From positions 18,306,877 through 18,370,876 of the forward strand of contig JASCQW010000099.1 of NCBI GenBank assembly GCA_030264375.1: 64,000 bases of DNA, in the 5' to 3' direction. Positions 53,355 to 53,690 of this stretch are shown here, in pieces. The notes below the pieces were generated by a model that ran no database searches, had not been told where the DNA came from, and worked only from the letters and a program-made list of their open reading frames with translations. The translations under genes and the position numbers were made by a program. The stretch comes from Carcharhinus longimanus. Its lineage: Eukaryota. Positions within the stretch are counted from its first letter, which is position 1. Each line of letters begins with the position of its first letter.

Positions 53355-53690
53355 GCCTCAACCAGGATCTTGAGTTCACGTCACACCACGTGCAACCCCC
53401 AAGACCCGCCCAGGCCCGCAAAATCCCACCAACTATCCCGGCTAGAGACAATCCACATCCCCCTAACCTGTACCCAACCCTCTCCCACTCACACTGCCTG
53501 TACCCCCAAGACCCGACCACCCGTAAAGACTCACATTCCGACCATTATCTTGTAAATTGCGTTTGTGTCTCTACACGCCCTGCCCGTGAACAGAATCTCC
53601 ACCCAGCCAGTAAAAGGGAAGCGCCCCAGAGGCCCGTGGCCTGTGCCGCCTGTTGGACTTCAACCTGGCGCTGTGAGACCTCCCACTGTA
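53355..53690 (+). mobile_element. Penelope-like 3' end, densely T>C-substituted
   Basis: LNQDLEFTSH resembles the GLNRDLGFMSHY-type PLE C-terminus. 53533-53690 aligns with 37658-37797 and with the reverse complement of 42682-42812. Confidence 0.75.

What the first reader, a model, noticed from the sequence alone, without database searches (positions are those of the whole stretch)
53355..53690. Penelope-like fragment with one-directional T>C (minus-strand A>G) hypermutation, fused to a LINE tail
Seen: 53650-53684 differs from 37761-37795 at 6 of 35 positions, all T>C, and the two other copies in the window (37594 arm, 42682) keep T at those sites. Upstream, TATATGCC becomes TACACGCC and TGTTTG becomes TGCCCG relative to the 42682-42812 copy, and the whole segment is abnormally C-rich. 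This runs opposite to normal CpG decay (C>T). On the minus strand the segment lies directly 5' of a CR1-type tail (53354-53266). Established: ADAR converts A to I in dsRNA, and reverse transcriptases read I as G. Inference: a hyper-edited RNA was reverse-transcribed as a chimera with a LINE tail and fixed in the germline. An alternative is an RT with adenine-specific infidelity. The edited strand is also the sense strand of the ABHD12 pre-mRNA, which contains this repeat in both orientations.
Basis: partly seen in the sequence, partly recalled or inferred. Interest (0 to 1): 0.85.

Follow-up and report, generated by a model that had tools for sequence, protein, structure and literature searches.

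The report
ADAR-scarred Penelope copies in shark genome
A 335-base piece of a Penelope-like transposon in a shark gene's intron has almost half of its T's changed to C on one strand, as do seven other copies found elsewhere in the genome, likely because the RNA-editing enzyme ADAR altered double-stranded RNA that was then copied back into germline DNA.

Summary
Window 53355-53689 is the 3' end of a Penelope-like element. Against its probable source locus (G000:C32) it shows T>C at 50 of 108 T's. The 257-base LTR-retrotransposon flank copied along with it shows 4 of 79 (p=1e-10), and the tail shows 0 of 14. Contigs from four studies carry parts of the C-rich sequence. It is not a subfamily: 29 other copies keep T.

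Targeted searches found seven more hypermutated loci among about 32,000 motif matches. In six, both arms of an inverted repeat are changed on the same strand. A's after G are spared (25% edited, against 51-55% after A or U). Two loci share 22 edits, so one edited copy was itself re-copied.

Best reading: ADAR hyper-edited a double-stranded RNA, which was then reverse-transcribed into the germline. The block tail + Penelope + LTR (53266-53946) sits at one site in an ABHD12 intron.

Not shown: the source RNA, ADAR dependence, ADAR's 3'-G preference, and how the tail was joined. None of the seven other loci has the tail in this position.

The parts
53355..53689 (+). 3' end of a Penelope-like element (last codons of the ORF plus pLTR; + strand is element sense), hypermutated T>C on + (A>G on -) from 53387 to 53684
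   Evidence: family ORF 74% identical to the C-terminus of RT protein P0073
53690..53946 (+). Piece of an old LTR retrotransposon (end of internal region, purine tract, start of LTR) copied with the element from the C32 locus; not hypermutated; cut at 53946, the inferred 5' truncation point of the minus-strand RNA
   Evidence: weak integrase (rve) hit, below the Pfam cut-off, upstream in family copy L055
53266..53354 (-). 3' tail of an abundant SINE/LINE-type repeat ending in (TTCTTTG)n, with a short internal deletion; unedited; inferred priming end of the insertion. The CR1/HE1-type label is recalled, not tested
52840..53267 (.). Old host repeat, left side of the insertion site
53942..53956 (.). 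Host repeat resumes. GGTAC at 53942-53946 is shared by the source LTR and the host (microhomology); about 9-10 host bases are missing; no target-site duplication
   Evidence: offset 9-11 in 6 of 8 host copies printed, low alignment scores
57019..57126 (-). ABHD12 coding exon upstream of the host intron
42955..43080 (-). ABHD12 coding exon downstream of the host intron
42681..42808 (-). Unedited inverted copy of the same family in ABHD12; could pair only with the right ~130 bases of the edited piece
37555..37801 (.). Unedited head-to-head (hairpin) insertion of the same family

Best explanation
This is likely the DNA fossil of an ADAR-hyper-edited RNA that was likely reverse-transcribed into the germline. 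Shown: a Penelope 3' fragment sits inside an old LTR retrotransposon at a locus on C32, with inverted copies of the same family 1.8, 3.6, 7.6 and 18 kb away. A 5'-truncated copy of that junction lies here with about 45% of the minus-strand A's of the Penelope part read as G and none of the flank skewed. Inferred steps: (1) a minus-strand transcript of the C32 locus folded (or annealed) through the Penelope part only; (2) ADAR deaminated A to I there, avoiding A's preceded by G; (3) a LINE reverse transcriptase primed on the (TTCTTTG)n tail at a nick in an old repeat in the ABHD12 intron, reached the edited RNA (template switch, about 50%; tail already on that RNA, or inserted separately, about 25% each), read I as G, and stopped after about 590 bases at a GGTAC microhomology, losing about 10 target bases; (4) the copy was fixed and has since decayed neutrally. 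The same editing-then-copying happened at least seven times in this family, mostly to tail-to-tail hairpin RNAs, probably copied by the Penelope RT itself (inferred). The product here is most likely non-functional.
For: One class, one strand: 44 T>C of 102 vs 5 A>G, 0 T>A, 0 T>G. Sharp stop at the element boundary: last edit 53684, junction 53689; 50/108 vs 4/79 in the flank; tail 0/14. Of 29 other flank-family loci fetched, only C32 shares the junction, and it continues further into the LTR. The source has inverted copies nearby. 5' neighbour of edited A's, pooled over 12 arms: U 39/71, A 62/121, C 43/134, G 19/77 (G vs U/A p=4e-5; without this copy 12/56, p=2e-4). This matches the upstream G depletion described for hyper-edited RNA (PMC4365171, passages). 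Seven more loci: L086 18/53, L087 25/49, L088 9/37, L089 24/42, L111 18/44, L118 23/73 T>C at unselected sites (p 5e-4 to 5e-18 against a 6.6% background), plus L119. In L086, L088, L089, L111, L118 and L119 both inverted arms are changed on the same physical strand, as expected for a folded single strand. In L118 edits fall at 11 of 38 T's inside the stretch that has a partner arm and 1 of 39 outside. Edit sites are not shared with this copy beyond chance (p=1.0 for five arms, 0.057 for L118). Controls: 0 of 22 unselected arms and 0 of 49 arms from another search reach the threshold. The sequence is present in contigs of 4 studies. The insertion occupies one host site with target loss and microhomology.
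Against: No RNA evidence was obtained. No minus-strand gene was found at the source: its recognisable neighbours, an IGF2BP gene ending about 42 kb away and a MAP3K13-like exon (name recalled), are both on the + strand (only 150 of 605 candidate ORFs scanned). In this copy alone the 5'-G depletion is not significant (7/21 vs 28/48, p=0.07). ADAR's 3'-G enrichment is only a trend here (21/38, p=0.10) and is absent in the other arms (26/85, lower than U/A). Edit density does not follow the inverted partners visible at the source (29/63 with a partner vs 15/36 without, p=0.83), so the true partner is not identified; there are assembly gaps beside two candidates. In L086, L087, L088, L118 and L119 an adjacent complementary arm is unedited; in L087 no edited partner is seen at all. 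The source no longer shows this tail: a different tail and a gap lie there. The tail/Penelope junction is not bridged by any listed contig. The low rate after C is confounded by decay of newly made CpG.
Confidence: 0.85

Rival explanations
1. ADAR deaminated the DNA strand of an RNA:DNA hybrid during reverse transcription: first-strand cDNA of a + strand source RNA, or cDNA annealed to Penelope sense RNA.
For: The + strand is the sense of the element, of the LTR piece and of both neighbouring genes at the source, so a + strand RNA is the more natural template. The lone edited arm in this copy and in L087 is the antisense (cDNA) strand. ADARs can edit dA in hybrids, and whether they do so on retroviral intermediates is described as unknown (PMC12925331, passages).
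Against: A hybrid would include the flank, which is not mutated (4/79). In hairpin loci sense and antisense arms are hit on the same strand, and in L118 edits stop where the intramolecular partner stops (11/38 vs 1/39).
Confidence: 0.05
2. The piece inserted unedited. Edits were made later on the ABHD12 pre-mRNA (minus strand) and written back in place by RNA-templated repair or gene conversion.
For: The edited strand is ABHD12 sense, and the piece lies in an intron. An inverted copy at 42681-42808 covers the right-hand edited block. No minus-strand transcript is shown at the source.
Against: It needs two rare events instead of one. The left-hand block (25 edits of 41 T's at reference 38-173) has no visible in-gene partner nearer than about 71 kb. 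The in-gene partners themselves are unedited. Diverged runs X1 and X8 carry the edited state.
Confidence: 0.04
3. Adenine-specific infidelity of a reverse transcriptase (DGR-like), or dNTP-pool imbalance.
For: It would also give one-strand changes at template A's.
Against: No T>A or T>G against the family majority. The tail and flank of the same insertion are clean. There is a neighbour preference and confinement to inverted arms.
Confidence: 0.03
4. A C-rich subfamily, GC-biased gene conversion, CpG-decay polarity error, or an assembly artefact.
For: L118 and L119 do share 22 edits, so small edited lineages exist. About 10 of the 50 differences from L002 are C>T decay in L002.
Against: 29 copies keep T. 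A pattern built on this copy's C's finds only itself. Biased conversion would raise A>G equally (1 of 68 vs source). Contigs of 4 studies carry the sequence.
Confidence: 0.03

Closest known systems
[quoted passage not shown]
   Same: About half of the adenosines in an inverted-repeat region are replaced by G and fixed in DNA through reverse transcription.
   Different: Those are exogenous viruses. Here it is a heritable chromosomal insertion of a Penelope-like element plus unrelated flank, recurring across a family, with no viral cycle.
ADAR hyper-editing of inverted repeats in RNA (inverted Alus; PMC4365171, PMC3197674, passages)
   Same: Dense A>G clusters in repeats with a nearby inverted copy; G depleted upstream.
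   Different: Known from RNA, transient. Here the marks are in genomic DNA. The downstream G enrichment described there is not reproduced in the pooled arms.
APOBEC DNA editing of LTR retrotransposons preserved in vertebrate genomes (Knisbacher and Levanon, PMC4866542, passages)
   Same: A deaminase scar on a retroelement intermediate integrated in the germline, found by comparing a copy with its source.
   Different: That is G>A from C deamination of cDNA in LTR elements; the screen filtered for G-to-A and not A-to-G. Here it is A>G, structure-dependent, in a Penelope-like element.
Chimeric retrotranscripts formed by template switching (U6-L1; CR1-mobilised PittSINE, PMC5729268, passages)
   Same: A LINE/SINE 3' tail joined to an unrelated RNA in one insertion.
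   Different: The 5' partner here is a hyper-edited read-through RNA of repeats, 5'-truncated; the switch itself is inferred, not shown.
Penelope/Poseidon-type PLEs (PMC8557442, PMC11167929, PMC4209133, passages)
   Same: Single RT ORF followed by a pLTR; frequent inverted 5'-truncated copies that supply dsRNA.
   Different: None of the passages seen reports editing of PLE RNA or edited genomic copies.

Membership tests
ADAR hyper-editing product | Dense A>G on one strand, no other class raised | tested here: met
   44/102 T>C vs 5 A>G, 0 T>A, 0 T>G; 40 of 49 copy-specific changes
ADAR hyper-editing product | Confined to sequence able to form dsRNA | tested here: met
   Stops at the element end (50/108 vs 4/79); L118 11/38 inside vs 1/39 outside the paired stretch; both arms on one strand in 6 loci
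ADAR hyper-editing product | The pairing partner for this copy can be named | tested here: inconclusive
   Inverted copies exist at the source, but edit density does not track them (p=0.83); gaps nearby
ADAR hyper-editing product | G depleted 5' of the edited A | tested here: met
   Pooled 19/77 vs 101/192, p=4e-5; this copy alone p=0.07
ADAR hyper-editing product | G enriched 3' of the edited A | tested here: not met
   Trend in this copy (21/38, p=0.10); 26/85 in other arms, below U/A
ADAR hyper-editing product | Inosine in the RNA and dependence on ADAR | not testable with these tools
   No RNA holder listed; needs stranded RNA-seq or enzyme assays
Penelope-like element | Single ORF with RT followed by a C-terminal GIY-YIG endonuclease | tested here: inconclusive
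   Family frames are 70-74% identical to the C-terminus of P0073, which has RVT_1. No Pfam GIY-YIG hit; the GIY-YIG-like look of the motif is recalled
Penelope-like element | pLTR after the ORF; inverted 5'-truncated copies adjacent | tested here: met
   described as typical in PMC8557442
Penelope-like element | Minimal hammerhead ribozyme in the pLTR | tested here: inconclusive
   No Rfam hammerhead match in 7 loci; folds not significant; a core-like motif is visible in family copies (recognised from memory)
APOBEC-edited retroelement | G>A clusters on element sense | tested here: not met
   3 copy-specific G>A vs 40 T>C
DGR-type mutagenic retrotranscription | A replaced by any base along the whole cDNA | tested here: not met
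   No transversions at T against the majority; flank and tail clean
LINE-mediated chimeric insertion | 3' tail with tandem repeat at one end, 5' truncation at the other, single target site | tested here: met
   host repeat resumes with about 9-10 bases missing, GGTAC microhomology, no duplication; the right-side host alignment is short and low-scoring
LINE-mediated chimeric insertion | Tail and 5' part joined during one reverse transcription | tested here: inconclusive
   Junction has 0-2 shared bases, is not bridged by listed contigs, and the source is gapped on that side

The most novel reading that the evidence does not exclude
ADAR is a recurrent germline mutagen of shark Penelope elements. 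Read-through RNAs carrying tail-to-tail hairpins are hyper-edited while the 3' arm used for priming stays unedited, they still retrotranspose, and edited copies go on to breed further copies (L118/L119). Tens of such loci would form a datable fossil record of ADAR activity, structure and specificity in the germline, and a route to sudden GC/CpG-rich transposon variants.
Probability: 0.5. Interest if true: 0.85.

Novelty: new variant of a known kind. Interest (0 to 1): 0.72.

Why it matters
A 2016 review states that a role for ADAR editing in Alu subfamily evolution, and in suppressing their retrotransposition by mutation, had not been determined (PMC4982230, passages). A cell study found L1 RNA not edited by ADAR1 (PMC5224506, passages). 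Germline scars of APOBEC are catalogued; I found no paper on ADAR scars in Penelope or other non-LTR genomic copies in ten searches of the open library. Subscription journals and supplements were not seen, so prior reports may exist. This locus has a traceable source, a built-in unedited control (the flank) and siblings. That makes the open question directly countable: how often edited RNA reaches the germline, and whether edited elements keep moving. The unedited third arm also offers a handle on the poorly understood way Penelope elements make inverted repeats. The single insertion itself is probably inert.

Tried and rejected
Two of the edit-detecting patterns found nothing, and one found only this copy. 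Of 6 hits, L085 was not counted (3 T>C of 26, all selected). Of 21 hits, 15 were ordinary copies and L116 is weak (4/19 after removing selected sites, p=0.03). No RNA holder was listed for the stretch; this says nothing on expression. Rfam found no hammerhead, only sub-threshold miRNA hairpin matches. Pfam gave no GIY-YIG hit, and PDB gave no useful hit for P0073. ARAGORN found no tRNA gene in 7 tail-bearing loci. A recalled synteny guess (a minus-strand SENP gene at the source) found no support. The Pfam scan of 150 of 605 ORFs around the source gave only an IGF2BP KH exon and one weak DUF. An unedited source for L118/L119 was not found among the 28 other loci fetched. The pooled context test removed the wrong two sites for inverted arms and was redone; figures for this copy alone are unaffected. 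A 5-base target-site duplication was considered and dropped, because the right-hand bases match the host repeat. The idea that edit troughs map to missing partners was not supported. Look-ups of earlier scan notes by place, by one set of words and by sequence were empty.

Full report
OBSERVATION. Against their column majority, 53355-53689 has 44 T>C among 102 T's, 5 A>G, 2 C>T, 8 G>A, and no T>A or T>G. The 29 others have 0-8 T>C each (p=6e-37). Those copies were chosen by likeness to the query, which can only understate the contrast.

IT IS REAL DNA. Four public runs from four studies, laid as contigs, carry parts of the C-rich sequence with 0-8 other letters per piece. Only X1 covers the left half. 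X8 crosses the right junction and, in a separate piece, the left host/tail junction. X1 and X8 differ from the window by a few percent, so the insertion exists in diverged lineages or alleles. One of the runs may be the assembly's own sample. No listed contig bridges the tail/element junction.

THE SOURCE. One copy, L002 (G000:C32:6466521), shares 18 derived variants with the query and continues to match for 257 bases past the element. That flank belongs to an old LTR-retrotransposon family (44 matches; weak integrase hit upstream in one copy). Of the 29 other flank loci fetched, only C32 has the element joined at this point, and it runs on into the LTR where the window copy stops at 53946. 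So the window holds a truncated copy of the C32 junction, or of a lost sister of it. Against L002, T>C is 50 of 108 in the element and 4 of 79 in the flank (p=1e-10). Forty of the 49 copy-specific changes are T>C. The flank differs at 22 of 257 bases with a mixed spectrum, so the event is old (inference; not dated).

THE ELEMENT. The + strand is element sense. Family copies continue upstream into a frame 74% identical to the C-terminus of an RT-bearing shark protein, and they often carry adjacent inverted truncated copies, as described for PLEs (PMC8557442, passages). Pfam GIY-YIG and Rfam hammerhead tests gave no hit, so the Penelope label rests on architecture and homology. A motif at the family's 3' end occurs 31,880 times.

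THE INSERTION. On the minus strand the block reads LTR piece, edited antisense element, then an 89-base tail ending in (TTCTTTG)n that belongs to an abundant SINE/LINE-type repeat. The tail is unedited (0 of 14 T columns). The whole block 53266-53946 interrupts an older repeat. The host sequence resumes at 53942 with about 9-10 bases missing in 6 of 8 host copies printed, and GGTAC is shared by donor and host (short, low-scoring alignments). This suits one LINE-type insertion primed at the tail and truncated at the far end (inference). The site is in an intron of ABHD12, minus strand, between exons at 57019 and 43080.

IT RECURS. Six narrow patterns requiring 2-4 changes were run. They gave 6, 0, 0, 1, 21 and 1 hits. 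After removing duplicates and selected sites, seven other loci are clearly hypermutated: L086 18/53, L087 25/49, L088 9/37, L089 24/42, L111 18/44, L118 23/73 and L119. L116 is weak. Controls: 0 of 22 unselected arms and 0 of 49 arms from another search. Edit sites are not shared with the query beyond chance. L118 and L119, on different contigs, match over about 620 bases and share 22 edits with only 6 private ones, so an edited sequence was copied again. In six of the seven loci both arms of an inverted repeat are changed on the same physical strand. In L118 the changes stop where the partner arm stops (11/38 vs 1/39). In five loci a further arm, at the 3' end of the edited strand, is unedited; this is unexplained. 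None of the seven shows a tail motif on the 3' side of the edited strand; two have one on the 5' side.

CONTEXT. Pooled over 12 arms, A's were edited at 55% after U, 51% after A, 32% after C and 25% after G (p=4e-5). This agrees with the upstream G depletion of hyper-edited RNA (PMC4365171, passages). In this copy alone the test gives p=0.07. The downstream G enrichment described in that paper is only a trend here and is absent in the other arms.

MECHANISM. Shown: the strand-specific class, the boundary, the source junction, recurrence, same-strand editing of both arms, the 5' preference and presence in independent data. Inferred: a minus-strand source RNA, ADAR as the enzyme (present across animals, from established knowledge; not searched here), I read as G, and the template switch. 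Weak points: the neighbours recognised at the source are on the + strand (IGF2BP gene; MAP3K13-like exon, name recalled), so the minus-strand RNA must be antisense or read-through transcription. The visible inverted partners (duplex energies -52 to -168 kcal/mol) do not predict edit density. Rivals are editing of the DNA strand of a hybrid (0.05), in-place write-back from ABHD12 RNA (0.04), RT infidelity (0.03) and subfamily, conversion or artefact (0.03).

KNOWN AND NEW. It works like the A-to-G hypermutation seen in avian retroviruses and HTLV-2 (PMC12925331, section read), and it parallels APOBEC-edited LTR elements in genomes (PMC4866542, passages). The common trace artefact described in PMC2873906 is G-to-A, not this class (passages). 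I found no report of ADAR-type edited Penelope or other non-LTR germline copies in ten searches. A review calls the question undetermined for Alu (PMC4982230, passages), and L1 RNA was found unedited in one cell assay (PMC5224506, passages). PMC7186786 treats A-to-G at edited sites as selected mutation; no write-back appeared in the passages seen. I saw passages only, no supplements, and subscription journals are outside the library. Two unchecked notes from this scan describe similar scars in an L1 and an ERV LTR in other genomes; they are leads, not support.

VERDICT. Real, well beyond chance, and most likely an ADAR-edited RNA fixed in the germline (0.85). It is one of at least seven independent events in this family. 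New variant of a known kind; interest 0.72.

Noticed in passing
L118:995-1611 (G000:C132) and L119:991-1610 (G000:C148): Two three-arm Penelope insertions on different contigs, 88% identical, share 22 edits and no outer flank: an already edited sequence was copied again.
   Followed up: partly
L086, L087, L088, L118, L119: Recurrent layout: an unedited inverted arm next to an edited forward arm, usually followed by a second edited inverted arm. The arm at the 3' end of the edited strand is always spared; unexplained.
   Followed up: partly
L116:1476-1647 (G000:C122): Both arms carry A>G in element sense, with two changes at mirror positions, as if the hairpin was made by copying an already edited strand; weak statistics.
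   Followed up: partly
L087:1535 onward and L111:1681 onward: A LINE/SINE 3' tail ends right next to the edited block on its 5' side, a possible source of read-through transcription or a later insertion.
   Followed up: no
L002:1424-1500 (G000:C32:6466444-6466520): The source has a different LINE/SINE tail joined at almost the same point of the element (12 bases from the window copy's junction), next to an assembly gap.
   Followed up: partly
window 53523-53573: A trough of editing (3 of 22 T's) inside the edited piece; also somewhat lower in L118 and L119.
   Followed up: partly
G000:C32:6406172-6424240 and L163:4897-5514: An IGF2BP gene (+ strand) and a MAP3K13-like exon (+ strand, name recalled) flank the source locus.
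   Followed up: partly
L158:5479-7376: Long degenerate tandem-repeat stretch with open frames, about 19 kb from the source.
   Followed up: no
P0075, P0076, P0077, P0079, P0082: Several annotated shark protein isoforms (septin 5a, XRCC5, cytochrome P450-like) contain pieces of this element's ORF, probably gene-model artefacts or exonisation.
   Followed up: no
window 35563-35687 and 33498-33589: Two further local palindromes seen in the self-comparison.
   Followed up: no
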